A DNA stretch of 64,000 nucleotides. Source: an uncultured Gammaproteobacteria bacterium. GTDB lineage: Bacteria; Patescibacteriota; Microgenomatia; Levybacterales; UBA12049. The DNA lies in contig CAZAZU010000002.1 in assembly GCA_964490105.1 (NCBI GenBank), forward strand, positions 12,751 through 76,750, written 5' to 3'. Position numbers and translations under genes: made by a program. Position 1 is the first letter of the stretch, and each line of letters opens with the position of its first letter. Of this stretch, positions 30,112 through 45,483 are shown one piece after another. Below the pieces are notes generated by a model. It made no database searches. It was not told the origin of the DNA and was given only the letters and a program-made list of their open reading frames with translations.

Positions 30112-30140
30112 GTTAATTTAAACCTCCCTAGTTGACTTTA

Positions 30141-30170
30141 TCCATCACTCAATTTATACTTTTAATTGCT
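30141..30170 (+). promoter_or_regulatory. sigma70-like promoter TTGACT-17-TATACT upstream of a ~240-nt untranslated GC-richer stretch and tRNA-Thr
   Basis: ttgactttatccatcactcaatttatact. Confidence 0.4.
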
Positions 30171-30419
30171 CTTTGATACACGCAGGGGATTATGATTTTT
30201 CCTCTATGTTAATTTCCTTGAGGTATCCCGATTTAATCGGGAGACAAGGCGGAGTTTCGGTTAACTAAGGTTAGTCGGACAGCCTCCCTATTTCACTCAA
30301 GGGGAAAACGATAATCCAACTTCGGTATCAAAGGCAGTATTTATTAATTAAACCAGTCTATTTTTAATAAAGGCAATGTCTTGCCTCAAATCTCCTCTTT
30401 CTGGTAAAATTACCATTAC

Positions 30420-30491
30420 GCCGTCTTAGCTCAGTGGTAGAGCAGCTGTTTTGTAAACAGCAGGTCGTGGGTTCAAATCCGACAGACGGCT
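30420..30491 (+). tRNA. tRNA-Thr (anticodon TGT)
   Basis: Cloverleaf folds by hand: acceptor gccgtct/agacggc, D-arm gctc-agtggta-gagc, anticodon stem gctgt/acagc with loop tttgtaa, T-loop ttcaaat. One G-G mismatch in the T-stem. CCA not encoded. Confidence 0.75.
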
Positions 30492-30781
30492 CAGCGTCCA
30501 ATCAAGATTAAATCCGTTCCATCTTTTGCTTTGCAAAAGATTTAACACTATAATCTGATTCTCCTTTCTCAAAATTGCTTTGCAATTTTGAAATCAATTA
30601 GCCCGCTGGCTAATTGAAGAGGAGCGAACGGCGAAAAATCGAAGTCCGCCAGATGGCGGACGAAGATCCGAGACGGAATCGCGACGAGCTGAGTTGGCGG
30701 AGCAGTCAATCGCACCTGACTGTAGATCAGGTGCCCGAAAGGGCTACAGGAGTGCAAATCTCTTACTCAGCACAACACCAA

Positions 30782-30853
30782 GCCGATTTGGCTCAGTGGT
30801 AGAGCAAGTCATTGGTAATGACTAGATCGTGGGTTCGATTCCCACAATCGGCT
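30782..30853 (+). tRNA. tRNA-Thr (anticodon GGT)
   Basis: Acceptor gccgatt/aatcggc, D-arm gctc-agtggta-gagc, anticodon stem agtca/tgact with loop ttggtaa, T-arm gtggg-ttcgatt-cccac. All stems perfect. Confidence 0.85.
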
Positions 30854-30866
30854 CACCTACTCTTTG

Positions 30867-30895
30867 ATTTTAAGCATAATTTTAGTTATAATTGT
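30867..30895 (+). promoter_or_regulatory. sigma70-like promoter TTGATT-17-TATAAT upstream of rpmG
   Basis: ttgattttaagcataattttagttataat, ~10 nt before the rpmG ATG. Confidence 0.4.
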
Positions 30896-30903
30896 AACCT
30901 CAT

Positions 30904-31077
30904 ATGGCAAAAGGTGAACACAGACAGAATTTTGGATTAAAATGCAGCGTTTGCAAGAACGTTAATTACATCACGCAAAGAAATAAAATTAACACTGAAA
31001 GCAAACTTTTACTTAAGAAGTTCTGTAAGAAATGCAGAAAAGTTACAGATCATAAAGAAATCGAAAAACTTAAGTAA
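30904..31077 (+). CDS. rpmG: 50S ribosomal protein L33
   Basis: 57-aa ORF MAKGEHRQNFGLKCSVCKNVNYITQRNKINTESKLLLKKFCKKCRKVTDHKEIEKLK with two C..C pairs and the L33 pattern. Below the 60-aa cut-off of the supplied ORF track. Canonical position before tRNA-Trp and secE. Confidence 0.8.
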   Translation: MAKGEHRQNFGLKCSVCKNVNYITQRNKINTESKLLLKKFCKKCRKVTDHKEIEKLK

Positions 31078-31151
31078 TTCCCCTCTTTTCATTTGATTAA
31101 AGCCCAGTCCCAAAGTATAATAGTGCCAGGGTTTAACCCTGAGCGAAACGA

Positions 31152-31223
31152 AGGGATGTGGTGAAACGGCTATCACAGCAGTCTCCAAAACTGCTTTTCT
31201 CAGTTCGAATCTGAGCATCCCTG
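31152..31223 (+). tRNA. tRNA-Trp (anticodon CCA)
   Basis: Acceptor agggatg/catccct, anticodon stem gcagt/actgc with loop ctccaaa, T-arm tcag-ttcgaat-ctga. Canonical rpmG-tRNATrp-secE neighbourhood. Confidence 0.8.
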
Positions 31224-31272
31224 CACTATTTGATATATTGTAATTTCCAGAGATCGATAGTATTTTAAATTC

Positions 31273-44520: not shown

Positions 44521-44549
44521 TTGACAGATTGAGGCTCAGCTGATATTAT
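44521..44549 (+). promoter_or_regulatory. sigma70-like promoter TTGACA-17-TATTAT for rplJ-rplL
   Basis: ttgacagattgaggctcagctgatattat. The ~95-nt structured leader that follows is consistent with an L10 autoregulatory leader. Confidence 0.5.
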
Positions 44550-44645
44550 GTCACTTACCTAAGACAGCGGGCAATCAATAAGTCCTGCCGAGGATGTAAT
44601 AAGCTCAAATTGAGCGCATCAACACCTTAGGAGGGTGTTTTTTTT

Positions 44646-45383
44646 ATGGGAATAGTAAAACAAGCAGTAAAACATACTGGACGTGGGCGAAAAGAAGAAA
44701 TCGTAGCTGAATTAGTCGAGAAAATCGATAACTCTAAAGCTTTGGTTTTTACTGACTATCAAGGTCTTACTCATGTTCAGCTCGAAAGTCTTAAAAAAGA
44801 ACTTAAAAAAAATGACGCTACAATCATAATCGCTAAGAATAGTCTTCTTAAAATCTCTCTTGGTAAATCAAAAAACTACGCGGACTTTAAAGATAATGAG
44901 AGTCTAAATCTTCCAACAGCTACTCTTTTTATGCAGGGAGATTATGTAGAACCTCTTAAACAGCTCCAAAAAGCACTTAAAGATTTTGGGCTTCCAAAGA
45001 TAAAGTTTGGCATTTTAGAAGGCCAAGCTCTTGATGAAGCTCAGGTTATAAAAATAGCTTCACTACCAAATAGAGAAACACTTCTTACTCAGTTAGTTGG
45101 TGTTCTTAACTCCCCTATTCAGGGATTGGTTGTAACTCTTAATGGAACTATTCAAAAATTTGTAATGACACTTGGAGCAATTGCAGCAAATAAACCAGCG
45201 ACTCCAGCGGATGCCCCAGTCGCAGAAACAACAAGTGAAACACCAGCAGAATCTGCACCAACAGAGGAAACACCTAGTGAAATGGAAAATACAGAGCCTG
45301 CTCCTTCTGAGGCAAAAGAAGAACAAGCGACCGAAGATTCTACTTCCAATGAAAAACCTGAAGAACAAACTCAAAATCCTTAA
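44646..45383 (+). CDS. rplJ: 50S ribosomal protein L10 with ~70-aa acidic low-complexity C-terminal extension
   Basis: The N-terminal ~175 aa are L10-like (KEEIVAELVEKIDNSKALVFTDYQGLTHVQLESLKKEL...). Tail ATPADAPVAETTSETPAESAPTEETPSEMENTEPAPSEAKEE. Confidence 0.85.
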   Translation: MGIVKQAVKHTGRGRKEEIVAELVEKIDNSKALVFTDYQGLTHVQLESLKKELKKNDATIIIAKNSLLKISLGKSKNYADFKDNESLNLPTATLFMQGDYVEPLKQLQKALKDFGLPKIKFGILEGQALDEAQVIKIASLPNRETLLTQLVGVLNSPIQGLVVTLNGTIQKFVMTLGAIAANKPATPADAPVAETTSETPAESAPTEETPSEMENTEPAPSEAKEEQATEDSTSNEKPEEQTQNP

Positions 45384-45483
45384 GGATTTTGAAGAGGAGA
45401 AGCCGATGATAGGCTGAAGGTCCGATTCAATCGGACCGAAGGCGGAAAATCGAGCTTAGACGAGAAGGGGGTGAAATAATTAT

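What the first reader, a model, noticed from the sequence alone, without database searches (positions are those of the whole stretch)
30493..30781. GC-rich, hairpin-dense 290-nt spacer between the two tRNA-Thr genes where tRNA-Tyr/tRNA-Gly would canonically sit
In many bacteria the thr-tyr-gly-thr tRNA array precedes the secE-nusG region. Here the space between the two tRNA-Thr genes contains no cloverleaf that I could fold. It is markedly GC-rich and full of perfect stems: gtccgcc-agat-ggcggac; cacctga-ctgtaga-tcaggtg; ccc-gaaa-ggg (GNRA loop); ttagcc-cgct-ggctaa. It also has a D-arm-like agctgagttggcggagc. It may be a structured ncRNA, or a degenerate or intron-disrupted tRNA.
Basis: partly seen in the sequence, partly recalled or inferred. 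Interest (0 to 1): 0.55.

Follow-up and report, generated by a model that had tools for sequence, protein, structure and literature searches.

The report
Missed tRNA-Tyr plus inserted structured leader

Summary
The central claim, that no cloverleaf lies between the two tRNA-Thr genes, is wrong. ARAGORN and Rfam both call an intact class-II tRNA-Tyr(GUA) at 30688-30773. In all 19 related Levybacteria/Patescibacteria loci with a complete array the order is Thr-Tyr-Thr with no tRNA-Gly, so nothing is missing or degenerate.

The true spacer is 30493-30687 (195 nt). It is far more hairpin-dense than chance (z = -6.2) and matches no Rfam family. Relatives usually have an 8-40 nt spacer here. The window and one other MAG carry a ~177-nt insertion in the loop of a small ancestral hairpin.

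Its 3' 95 nt (30594-30688) is a structured unit: hairpin, AGAGGAG, extended hairpin with an invariant GAA/GAA loop, then GACGA. I found four copies at three sites: 5' of tRNA-Tyr, the rplJ/rplL junction (window 45371-45464) and the rplJ start (another genome). On a hand-fitted alignment 15 of 24 pairs show compensatory changes, while hairpin tips are replaced wholesale.

Most likely it is a duplicative pre-tRNA leader module that RNase P removes. Function is unproven. Interest is modest.

The parts
30132..30160 (+). Promoter-like site (TTGACT-17-TATACT) heading the tRNA/L33 cluster
   Evidence: Consensus scan, 10 of 12 matches. Both hexamers are conserved in L007. Consensus match only; no transcript data.
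30167..30419 (+). Conserved structured leader upstream of tRNA-Thr(TGT). It starts with a boxA-like TGCTCTTTGATAC (30167-30179) and contains the hairpin TCCCGAT-TTA-ATCGGGA (30227-30243).
   Evidence: Long stretches are identical to L007, but this one hairpin is replaced by a different paired hairpin, GTTTTGTT-TTCACG-AACAAAGC. The promoter-plus-leader interval 30132-30419 is 71% identical overall. The boxA resemblance rests on my own knowledge of the E. coli rrn boxA (TGCTCTTTAACAA) and was not tested.
30420..30492 (+). tRNA-Thr(TGT)
   Evidence: ARAGORN; Rfam tRNA 69.3 bits.
30493..30500 (+). 5' remnant of the ancestral short Thr-Tyr spacer (AGCGTCCA)
   Evidence: L006 and L025 have the 25-nt spacer AGCGTCCA-TTATGGG-ATCGCGACGA, which shares both ends with the window spacer.
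30501..30677 (+). Lineage-specific insertion of ~177 nt in the loop of the ancestral spacer hairpin (GCGUCC...GGAuCGC)
   Evidence: Present in the window and L007 only. Absent at this site from L001, L002, L004-L006, L008-L010, L015, L016, L024 and L025. L003 (140 nt) and L018-L023 (81 nt) carry other sequences.
30521..30541 (+). Hairpin H1 (ATCTTTTGC-TTT-GCAAAAGAT)
   Evidence: Perfect 9-bp palindrome. In L007 only the loop differs.
30526..30554 (+). Possible internal promoter (TTGCTT-17-TATAAT)
   Evidence: Read directly from the sequence; coordinates. TATAAT and TTGC are kept in L007. The -35 hexamer matches only 3 of 6 positions, so the scan did not list it. Inference only.
30561..30567 (+). 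Pyrimidine tract CUCCUUU (anti-SD-like), the 5' strand of helix P0, which pairs with AGAGGAG at 30618-30624
   Evidence: Predicted in the MFE folds of the window, L007 and L025 copies with their native 5' flanks. Includes a U-G pair.
30569..30591 (+). Hairpin H2 (TCAAAATTGC-TTT-GCAATTTTGA). It has the same TCAA...TTGA base as H3 and shares the core TTGCTTTGCAA with H1.
   Evidence: In L007 only the loop differs.
30594..30688 (+). Copy A of the 95-nt structured unit. Layout: H3 (30594-30617), AGAGGAG (30618-30624), P1 CGA/UCG (30625-30627 with 30679-30681), P2 AUC/GAU (30638-30640 with 30665-30667), GAA/GAA internal loop (30641-30643 and 30662-30664), H4 GTCCGCC-AGAT-GGCGGAC (30644-30661), and the tail CGACGA ending at the tRNA-Tyr 5' end. 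The CM coordinates include G30688, which is G1 of tRNA-Tyr; the unit proper ends at 30687.
   Evidence: CM R1 scores 86.9 bits. The same architecture appears in single-sequence folds of all four copies. 90 of 91 pair cells are paired and 15 of 24 pairs show double compensatory changes. No Rfam hit.
30688..30773 (+). tRNA-Tyr(GUA), class II with a long variable arm, G1-C72, A73, no encoded CCA
   Evidence: ARAGORN; Rfam 51.8 bits with alignment shown. Identical in five genomes, with compensatory changes in the acceptor, anticodon and variable stems of others.
30782..30854 (+). tRNA-Thr(GGT)
   Evidence: ARAGORN; Rfam 74.8 bits.
45371..45464 (+). Copy C of the same unit, inserted at the rplJ (L10) / rplL (L7/L12) junction. 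The L10 stop codon lies in its H3 loop.
   Evidence: CM R1 scores 93.6 bits; nhmmer E = 1e-21. rplJ and rplL overlap (TAATG) in L025, L027, L028, L029, L030, L031 and L032. Junction comparison.

Best explanation
The interval contains two things.

(1) 30688-30773 is an ordinary, functional class-II tRNA-Tyr(GUA) gene. The local array Thr(UGU)-Tyr(GUA)-Thr(GGU)-rpmG-Trp(CCA) is the normal arrangement in Levybacteria and never includes a tRNA-Gly. This is shown.

(2) 30493-30687 is the transcribed spacer, that is, the 5' leader of pre-tRNA-Tyr. Relatives have a short hairpin here of about 25 nt. The window lineage and one other MAG carry a ~177-nt insertion in that hairpin's loop. This is shown.

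The 5' half of the insertion has two AT-rich palindromes flanking a promoter-like TTGCTT-17-TATAAT. It may supply an internal promoter. This is inferred.

The 3' 95 nt is a compactly folded RNA module: a hairpin, an SD-like AGAGGAG, and an extended hairpin with an invariant GAA/GAA internal loop. It ends in GACGA exactly at the RNase P cleavage site of tRNA-Tyr. The structure is shown; the cleavage is inferred from general tRNA biology.

This module belongs to a small duplicative family. Copies have been pasted, always in the sense orientation, directly 5' of other highly expressed translation genes: the rplJ/rplL junction in this genome and the rplJ start in another. GACGA is the native end of the tRNA-Tyr leader even in genomes without the insert. 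The other copies therefore most likely derive from a tRNA-Tyr-leader copy, possibly through the processed leader RNA. This is inferred.

At this locus the module most likely acts only in cis, as a self-contained, well-folded leader. It is co-transcribed with the tRNAs and cut off by RNase P, so it is tolerated and not required. The hairpin tips turn over by wholesale replacement, through template switching or conversion between paralogous hairpin modules, while the closing base pairs and the purine-rich linkers stay fixed.
For: tRNA-Tyr:
- Called by ARAGORN and Rfam.
- Identical in the window, L006, L007, L010 and L025. Compensatory changes occur in three stems, and positions 18 and 55 co-vary across 10 distinct sequences.

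Array without tRNA-Gly.

Spacer structure: z = -6.2.

Insertion versus empty site: the spacers of L006 and L025 share both ends with the window spacer. In the 19 complete arrays the Thr-Tyr spacer is 8-193 nt; L009 and L025, cut off by a contig end, read about 21 and 25 nt.

Unit family:
- nhmmer and CM searches find four copies at 87-98 bits, with nothing else above 20 bits in about 1 Mb.
- RNAalifold finds covarying long-range pairs.
- Each copy folded alone gives the same architecture, and the + strand is always more stable than the - strand.
- 90 of 91 pair cells are paired and 15 of 24 pairs carry double compensatory changes.

Copy C is an insertion: rplJ and rplL overlap in seven relatives, and the junction is precise, GAAGAACAAAC-[TCAA..GACGA]-GAAGGGGG.

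Copy D lies between the L10 leader and the rplJ ATG.

GACGA precedes tRNA-Tyr in genomes with short spacers.

Hairpin-tip turnover:
- Between copies A and B, 20 of 34 tip positions differ against 1 of 63 elsewhere, p = 9e-11.
- Strain-level hairpin insertion and swap polymorphisms occur in L018-L023.
- The TCCGCC..GGCGGA and TCCGAT..ATCGGA hairpins recur almost only in tRNA and r-protein leaders.
- The template-switch mechanism for creating perfect stems is documented in PMC8794818.
Against: - There are no expression or processing data. Co-transcription, the internal promoter and RNase P cleavage at 30687/30688 are all inferred.
- Only four copies exist, about three of them independent, and the pair table rests on a hand-made, structure-fitted alignment. 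The covariation is suggestive, not statistically rigorous.
- The whole tRNA-L33 cluster is unusually conserved between the window and L007: L33 CDS 93% and Thr-L33 IGR 94%, against 38-83% elsewhere. The invariance of the linkers could therefore reflect a recently exchanged segment, not selection on the spacer.
- The invariant motifs (AGAGGAG, GAA/GAA, GACGA) are kept across paralogues at different loci. That hints at a specific function or a specific mobilising machinery, which this "tolerated passenger" account does not identify.
- No mobilisation mechanism (RT, transposase, TIR or TSD) was found or could be searched for genome-wide.
- The promoter-like -35 hexamer matches only 3 of 6 positions and was not listed by the scan.
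Confidence: 0.55

Rival explanations
1. The unit is a host cis-regulatory element. It could be a 5' stabiliser or processing module: a hairpin plus an SD-like AGAGGAG that recruits 30S subunits or blocks 5' exonucleases, like the Bacillus STAB-SD leaders. Or it could be a protein-binding operator, with the GAA/GAA loop as a protein site. Either way it would raise or tune the output of the gene immediately downstream (tRNA-Tyr, L7/L12, L10).
For: - All four copies sit in the sense orientation directly 5' of highly expressed translation genes.
- The invariant single-stranded motifs AGAGGAG, GAA/GAA and GACGA are kept across paralogues while the helices covary.
- An anti-SD-like CUCCUUU can sequester the AGAGGAG in copies A, B and D.
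- In L025 the unit separates the L10 leader from the rplJ start. Its extended hairpin would bring AGAGGA to about 7 nt from the AUG (inference).
Against: - The distribution is very patchy. The unit is absent from the Thr-Tyr site in most relatives, from the rplJ/rplL junction in 7 of 7 relatives with an abutting junction (an eighth, L033, has an unrelated insert), and from the closest genome sampled, L010/L030.
- An SD-like element has no obvious role 5' of a tRNA.
- No protein partner or ligand is indicated.
Confidence: 0.2
2. The spacer is processed out of the pre-tRNA and acts in trans as a small regulatory or sponge RNA. Known parallels are the E. coli 3'ETS-leuZ, the metZWV ITS, and RtT RNA from the tyrT operon.
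For: - It is a stable, highly structured fragment bounded by RNase P and tRNA 3'-processing sites.
- There is precedent for functional tRNA-transcript spacers (PMC8383071, citing Lalaouna et al. 2015).
- It has exposed, conserved purine-rich linkers.
Against: - No target is known.
- Patchy presence among close relatives.
- Copies C and D are embedded in mRNA leaders, not tRNA transcripts.
- No Rfam sRNA family matches, RtT included.
Confidence: 0.1
3. The palindromes act at the DNA level and not as RNA. They could be operator sites for a dimeric DNA-binding protein around an internal promoter (H1 and H2 share TTGC-TTT-GCAA), or a minus-strand intrinsic terminator (H4 followed by TTCGATTTTT on the - strand).
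For: - All four window hairpins are perfect DNA palindromes.
- H1 and H2 share an 11-nt core and flank TATAAT.
- The scan lists a terminator-like site on the - strand at 30661-30644.
Against: - In L007 the H2 loop shrinks from 3 to 2 nt and the H3 and H4 arms are completely different sequences. A sequence-specific DNA-binding site would not tolerate this.
- G-U pairs (P2 of copy C, P0, the L007 leader hairpin) work only on the + strand RNA, and the + strand folds better in all four copies.
- No minus-strand gene converges on this site.
- Copy C lacks the - strand T-run.
Confidence: 0.05
4. The unit is a new small self-cleaving ribozyme, or another catalytic or mobile RNA, that processes the transcript just upstream of the downstream gene.
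For: - Its pattern is typical of small ribozymes: invariant nucleotides confined to internal loops and junctions, hypervariable covarying helices, patchy multi-locus distribution, and sense orientation within transcripts.
Against: - No hit to any Rfam ribozyme family, even at E<=10.
- Only four copies were found.
- No biochemical evidence.
- RNase P already accounts for cleavage at the 3' end in copy A.
Confidence: 0.04
5. One reading: the interval is a degenerate or intron-disrupted tRNA, for example a decayed tRNA-Gly or tRNA-Tyr.
For: Relatives L018-L023 really do carry pseudo-tRNA fragments with hairpins inserted in their spacers. Such decay therefore happens in this clade.
Against: - The tRNA-Tyr is intact and uninterrupted.
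- Neither ARAGORN nor the Rfam tRNA model, at E<=10, finds anything in 30493-30687.
- blastn at word size 7 finds no similarity between the spacer and the window's tRNAs.
- tRNA-Gly is absent from every related array.
Confidence: 0.02

Closest known systems
Bacterial class-II tRNA-Tyr, and the thrU-tyrU-glyT-thrT (tufB) type tRNA operon of E. coli
   Same: Thr-Tyr-...-Thr order next to translation genes. The tRNA-Tyr has a GUA anticodon, a long variable arm, G1-C72 and A73.
   Different: There is no tRNA-Gly in this clade. The array is followed by rpmG and tRNA-Trp instead of tufB. No CCA is encoded. The D-loop and T-loop are unusual, with A18/G55 in place of G18/U55.
Functional transcribed spacers of tRNA operons (E. 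coli 3'ETS-leuZ and metZWV ITS sponges; RtT RNA of the tyrT operon)
   Same: A structured, non-tRNA segment co-transcribed with tRNAs and released by tRNA processing enzymes.
   Different: No trans target or Hfq-type partner is known. No sequence or Rfam similarity. The distribution is patchy, and the same unit also occurs in mRNA leaders.
Small non-autonomous repeated intergenic elements that are co-transcribed with neighbouring genes (Neisseria Correia/CREE, REP/BIME, pneumococcal BOX/RUP, Rickettsia palindromic elements)
   Same: About 100 nt, hairpin-rich, multi-copy, inserted in or next to genes with presence/absence polymorphism between close relatives. Copy C replaces the 3' end of a coding region, as RPEs can.
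   Different: No terminal inverted repeats or target-site duplication. Very low copy number in the data I hold. The hairpin sequences are the variable part and the linkers the conserved part, the reverse of REP and PATE elements. Only the sense orientation is seen.
5' stabiliser leaders with SD-like sequences (the Bacillus cryIIIA STAB-SD type) and split Shine-Dalgarno arrangements
   Same: A hairpin followed by an SD-like purine tract (AGAGGAG) well upstream of, or separated by a hairpin from, the downstream gene start.
   Different: One copy precedes a tRNA and not an ORF. No stability data. The resemblance comes from my own knowledge and was not tested.
Template-switch generated or maintained RNA hairpins (Monttinen and Loytynoja 2022, PMC8794818)
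   Same: Perfect stems, multi-base simultaneous 'compensatory' replacement of hairpin arms, and hairpins inserted into loops.
   Different: That work concerns rRNA and other RNA genes in general. Here both arms are replaced at once, which a single template switch does not fully explain. Conversion between paralogous hairpin modules is an alternative.

Membership tests
tRNA (Rfam RF00005), class-II tRNA-Tyr | Cloverleaf recognised by a covariance model above the curated threshold | tested here: met
   51.8 bits against a gathering score of 29; E = 3e-8 over the window. ARAGORN calls tRNA-Tyr at 30688-30773.
tRNA (Rfam RF00005), class-II tRNA-Tyr | GUA anticodon in a 7-nt loop, long variable arm, G1-C72 and discriminator A73 (bacterial TyrRS identity set, from my own knowledge) | tested here: met
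   The alignment shows CUGUAGA in the anticodon loop and a 13-nt variable-arm insertion, gcccgaaagggcu. The acceptor GCUGAGU/ACUCAGC followed by A is read directly.
tRNA (Rfam RF00005), class-II tRNA-Tyr | Evolutionary conservation with compensatory stem changes (a functional gene, not a pseudogene) | tested here: met
   Identical in five genomes. Covarying acceptor, anticodon and variable stems, and an 18/55 tertiary pair, across 10 distinct sequences.
tRNA (Rfam RF00005), class-II tRNA-Tyr | Expression, processing and aminoacylation | not testable with these tools
   No transcript or biochemical data available.
Canonical thr-tyr-gly-thr tRNA array | tRNA-Gly between tRNA-Tyr and the second tRNA-Thr | tested here: not met
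   Only 8 nt separate Tyr and Thr(GGT). No tRNA-Gly in any of the 19 related complete arrays.
Any described RNA family (Rfam 15) for the spacer 30493-30687 and its paralogues | Covariance-model match | tested here: not met
   Nothing at the gathering threshold. At E<=10 only chance-level snoRNA hits. No match to copies C or D.
Intrinsic terminator on the transcribed strand | GC-rich hairpin followed by a U-run on the + strand | tested here: not met
   The scan finds terminator-like sites only on the - strand, at H4. None of H1-H4 is followed by a + strand T-run.
MITE / Correia-like element | Terminal inverted repeats and target-site duplication | tested here: not met
   The unit ends (TCAA... 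and ...GACGA) are not inverted repeats. The filled and empty junctions at the rplJ/rplL site show AAGT replaced, with no duplication.
REP/BIME or IS200/IS605-derived PATE | Sequence-conserved (sub)terminal hairpins recognised by a Y1 transposase, with the transposase present in the genome | tested here: not met
   The hairpin sequences are the most variable part of the unit. Whether a Y1 transposase is present in the genome was not tested.
tRNA-spacer-derived sponge or regulatory RNA (3'ETS-leuZ type) | Stable released fragment with complementarity to sRNA or mRNA partners | not testable with these tools
   Needs RNA-seq or interactome data and the complete genome.
Structured RNA element (generic) | Secondary structure maintained by compensatory changes in independent copies, with strand asymmetry | tested here: met
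   90 of 91 pair cells paired; 15 of 24 pairs with double changes (hand-fitted alignment). RNAalifold finds 7 of 13 pairs compensatory on the MAFFT alignment. The + strand MFE is better than the - strand in 4 of 4 copies. Only about 3 independent lineages.

The most novel reading that the evidence does not exclude
The 95-nt unit is a new class of RNA-defined mobile module. It would be the processed 5' leader of pre-tRNA-Tyr, with its 3' end set by RNase P cleavage after GACGA, copied back into the genome in the sense orientation directly upstream of other highly expressed genes (rplJ, rplL). The copying could be by reverse transcription or by transcription-associated recombination. Its invariant GAA/GAA loop and AGAGGAG tract would serve as the recognition or catalytic core, possibly a new self-cleaving or protein-recruiting motif.
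Probability: 0.1. Interest if true: 0.7.

Novelty: new member of a known kind. Interest (0 to 1): 0.25.

Why it matters
The headline of the finding, a tRNA-less gap where tRNA-Tyr and tRNA-Gly should be, is an artefact of reading by eye. It should not be carried forward.

What remains is modest but real. It is an undescribed, structure-conserved 95-nt RNA module in CPR (Levybacteria) genomes. It has been pasted in front of tRNA-Tyr, rplJ and rplL, and its hairpin tips are replaced wholesale between close relatives.

If followed up, it offers two things. It is a compact natural example of how expansion hairpins and leader modules arise and spread in very small genomes. It is also a possible handle on pre-tRNA and r-protein mRNA processing in an uncultured phylum.

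It does not bear on any long-standing open question as it stands.

Tried and rejected
Orthologue searches that gave nothing useful:
- Exact look-up of the window's L33 protein: not on record.
- Metagenome scan with the invariant 22-mer AGGAGCGAACGGCGAAAAATCG: one hit, a chance match inside a coding region with no tRNAs nearby.
- Loose gapped pattern on viral contigs: more than 120 hits. None of the 80 loci listed and screened is real; the best CM score is 19.8 bits.
- blastn against phages and plasmids: no match.

Searches for extra copies in the DNA I held:
- nhmmer profiles, a hand-written structural descriptor and a CM with filters off found only the four copies.
- By eye, the hairpin plus AAGGCGGA in the leader at 30227-30260 resembles part of copy C. 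No profile supports this, so I leave it as a resemblance.

Readings rejected:
- Coding. The 62-aa ORFs at 30614-30802 (+) and 30569-30757 (-) overlap the tRNA, and hairpin indels of -3 and +2 nt in L007 break the frame.
- The mini-ORF AUG-AUA-GGC-UGA after AGAGGAG exists only in copy C.
- A degenerate tRNA-Gly, or pseudo-tRNA pieces in the window spacer: no similarity.
- H4 as a terminator: the T-run is only on the - strand, and no gene converges there.

Other points:
- The L033 rplJ-rplL gap looked promising but holds an unrelated AT-rich insert.
- MAFFT alignments of the unit misalign the swapped hairpins, so the formal count of structure pairs was not used. The pair counts come from a hand-made alignment and should be read with that caveat.
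Full report
**1. What is at the coordinates**

The interval 30493-30781 lies between tRNA-Thr(TGT) at 30420-30492 and tRNA-Thr(GGT) at 30782-30854. However, ARAGORN calls a tRNA-Tyr(GTA) at 30688-30773. The Rfam tRNA model matches 30688-30772 at 51.8 bits against a gathering score of 29.

- The "D-arm-like" agctgagttggcggagc is the acceptor 5' strand plus the D arm.
- cacctga-ctgtaga-tcaggtg is the anticodon arm, with anticodon GUA.
- ccc-gaaa-ggg is the long variable arm of a class-II tRNA (alignment).

The tRNA has G1-C72 and A73 and encodes no CCA, like its neighbours. It is identical in the window, L006, L007, L010 and L025. More distant relatives show compensatory changes in the acceptor, anticodon and variable stems. 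It is a normal gene, neither degenerate nor interrupted.

**2. The "canonical" expectation does not apply to this clade**

I scanned GTDB genomes with a pattern taken from the tRNA-Tyr and looked up contigs of L33 homologues. The relatives recovered are Candidatus Levybacteria / Patescibacteria MAGs. Every complete array reads Thr(TGT)-Tyr(GTA)-Thr(GGT), usually followed by rpmG and tRNA-Trp. None has a tRNA-Gly.

**3. The real spacer**

The spacer is 30493-30687, 195 nt. Its first 100 nt are AT-rich (GC 0.28). Only 30594 onwards is GC-rich, at 0.59.

It holds four perfect hairpins:
- H1 at 30521-30541
- H2 at 30569-30591
- H3 at 30594-30617
- H4 at 30644-30661

It folds far better than shuffles: -70.2 against -44.5 +/- 4.1 kcal/mol, z = -6.2. 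No Rfam family matches it, even at E<=10.

**4. It is an insertion**

In the 19 complete arrays the Thr-Tyr spacer is 8-193 nt. L006 and L025 have a 25-nt spacer, AGCGTCCA-TTATGGG-ATCGCGACGA. Both of its ends are identical to the ends of the window spacer, and it folds as a small hairpin. The window and L007 (a Levyibacteriota MAG) therefore carry about 177 extra nt in the loop of that hairpin.

Genome-wide, the window and L007 are only 73-83% identical in coding DNA. The tRNA-L33 cluster, however, is locally very conserved: L33 CDS 93%, Thr-L33 IGR 94%, and the 5' part of the spacer 96%. The spacer's conservation is thus not exceptional for its neighbourhood.

What is exceptional is the distribution of differences. 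In the 3' 95 nt, 20 of 34 hairpin-tip positions differ against 1 of 63 positions elsewhere, p = 9e-11. H3 and H4 have been replaced by different, still perfectly paired hairpins:

| Hairpin | Window | L007 |
|---|---|---|
| H3 tip | TTAGCC-CGCT-GGCTAA | AATCC-AAA-GGATT |
| H4 | GTCCGCC-AGAT-GGCGGAC | GTTCCGAT-TTTA-ATCGGAAC |

**5. A small family of units**

BLAST of L007 against the window revealed a paralogue at 45371-45464, in the rplJ/rplL junction. A fourth copy lies at L025 14209-14302. It sits between the L10 leader (RF00557, 43.1 bits) and the rplJ start codon.

A covariance model scores the four copies at 87-98 bits. Nothing else exceeds 20 bits in the window (filters off), 33 bacterial loci or 80 viral loci.

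All copies share one architecture. It is recovered independently by single-sequence folding of each copy and in part by RNAalifold:
1. H3, with a TCAA...TTGA base.
2. AGAGGA(G).
3. P1, 3 bp: CGA/UCG in A and B, AAG/CUU in C and D.
4. An internal region of 10-12 nt per strand.
5. P2, 3 bp: AUC/GAU, GCU/GGC or GUC/GAC.
6. An invariant symmetric GAA/GAA internal loop.
7. H4, 7-8 bp.
8. A tail ending in GACGA.

On a hand-made, structure-aware alignment, 90 of 91 pair cells are paired and 15 of 24 pairs show double compensatory changes. The + strand folds better than the - strand in all four copies, most clearly in C and D (-36.9 against -30.0, and -27.7 against -21.6). This is consistent with G-U pairs and a sense-strand RNA.

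With their native 5' flanks, copies A, B and D also form a helix P0 between an anti-SD-like CUCCUUU and the AGAGGAG tract.

**6. Evidence that the unit has been copied between loci**

In seven relatives (L025, L027, L028, L029, L030, L031, L032) the rplJ stop overlaps the rplL start as TAATG. L028 comes from the same MAG as L007. L030 comes from the genome with the most similar L7/L12, at 98% identity.

The empty site reads GAAGAACAAAC-AAGT-GAAGGGGG. The window reads GAAGAACAAAC-[TCAA...GACGA]-GAAGGGGG. Copy C is therefore a precise insertion. It supplies a new L10 C-terminus and stop codon inside the H3 loop, and it uncouples rplJ from rplL.

GACGA is the last five bases of the tRNA-Tyr leader even in genomes with short spacers: L006, L009, L010 and L025. 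Copies C and D also end in GACGA. The simplest reading is that the unit arose in the tRNA-Tyr leader and that its 3' boundary is the RNase P cleavage site. This suggests, but does not prove, an RNA intermediate.

There are no terminal inverted repeats and no target duplication. No copies were found in phage, plasmid or viral collections.

**7. Hairpin turnover is a property of the clade**

In L018-L023, which are strains sharing one L33 protein, the spacers contain pseudo-tRNA halves. They differ by the presence or absence of a TCCGCC-AGA-GGCGGA hairpin inside a pseudo-D-loop, and by a swapped hairpin tip.

The TCCGCC..GGCGGA and TCCGAT..ATCGGA hairpins recur across genomes. Apart from one site in L012, they lie only in tRNA and r-protein leaders and spacers.

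Template switching during replication is a documented way to create perfect stems and multi-base "compensatory" changes in a single event (PMC8794818). Conversion between paralogous hairpin modules is an alternative. I could not distinguish between the two.

**8. Most likely mechanism**

Shown:
- An intact tRNA-Tyr.
- A lineage-specific insertion.
- A conserved RNA fold shared by four copies at three sites.

Inferred:
- The spacer is co-transcribed from the promoter-like site at 30132-30160, and possibly from an internal TTGCTT-17-TATAAT at 30526-30554.
- It folds compactly.
- RNase P removes it at 30687/30688.

At this locus it is then a tolerated leader module and not a required gene.

Rivals, in order of weight, are a cis stabiliser or processing or protein-binding element, a trans-acting spacer RNA (precedent), DNA-level palindromes, and a new ribozyme. 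None is excluded, because no transcript data exist.

**9. Verdict**

Its main inference, that no tRNA is present, is wrong. Its fallback, a structured ncRNA, is supported for the upstream 195 nt.

Novelty: a new member of a known kind, namely structured and duplicative transcribed-spacer or repeat elements.

Interest is low to moderate.

Noticed in passing
window 45371-45464: A second copy of the 95-nt structured unit is inserted at the rplJ/rplL junction. It replaces the last codons of L10, whose stop codon TAA now lies in the hairpin loop. It also breaks the TAATG stop-start overlap seen in seven relatives.
   Followed up: yes
L025 14209-14302: A fourth copy of the unit sits between the L10 leader's terminator-like hairpin and the rplJ start codon. 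This separates the usual SD-containing hairpin from the AUG. The unit's own AGAGGA would be brought to about 7 nt from the AUG if its extended hairpin folds.
   Followed up: partly
window 44540-44653: A ribosomal protein L10 leader (RF00557) abuts rplJ just below the Rfam threshold, at 42.8 bits against 44. The equivalent in L025 scores 43.1 bits. It is probably a genuine but divergent CPR version of the leader.
   Followed up: no
window 30132-30419: The operon leader has a promoter-like TTGACT-17-TATACT followed at once by TGCTCTTTGATAC (30167-30179), which resembles the rrn boxA antitermination signal and is invariant in L007. The ~250-nt leader has long stretches identical to L007, but one hairpin (30227-30243) is swapped for a different paired hairpin.
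   Followed up: partly
window 30688-30773 and tRNA-Tyr genes of L001-L025: The tRNA-Tyr has an unusual T-loop, UGCAAAU (G at position 55 in place of U), and a D-loop lacking GG. Across 10 distinct sequences, A18 always goes with G55 and G18 with U55. This looks like covariation of the 18-55 tertiary pair.
   Followed up: partly
L018-L023 (e.g. L018 2300-2900): The spacers of this Levybacteria group contain pseudo-tRNA fragments: a 3' T-arm/acceptor remnant and a 5' half of tRNA-Thr(GGT). A repeated extended-hairpin leader precedes several tRNAs. Between strains, a TCCGCC-AGA-GGCGGA hairpin is present or absent inside a pseudo-D-loop, and another hairpin tip is swapped.
   Followed up: partly
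window 30228, 30646, 45422; L007 6995; L010 5323; L012 793; L018-L023, several sites: Two perfect hairpin 'modules', TCCGCC-N3-4-GGCGGA and TCCGAT-N3-4-ATCGGA, recur in different genomes. Apart from one site in L012, they lie only in leaders and spacers of tRNA/r-protein clusters. Their origin (conversion, insertion or convergence) is unexplained.
   Followed up: partly
L033 9961-10049: Another relative has an unrelated AT-rich 89-nt insertion with its own hairpin at the same rplJ/rplL junction. This junction therefore tolerates insertions repeatedly.
   Followed up: no
L001-L003, L006, L009, L010, L026, L030 (records CAZ.../CAY...): Several MAG records titled 'uncultured Gammaproteobacteria bacterium' carry Levybacteria-type tRNA arrays and r-protein genes. 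For example, the L7/L12 in L030 is 98% identical to the window's. The taxonomic labels of these records look wrong.
   Followed up: no
window 30855-31224: rpmG (L33, 30904-31077) and tRNA-Trp each have their own promoter-like TTGATT-17-TATAAT (30864-30892 and 31093-31121). secE-nusG do not follow tRNA-Trp directly; by synteny with L025, several unrelated genes lie in between.
   Followed up: no
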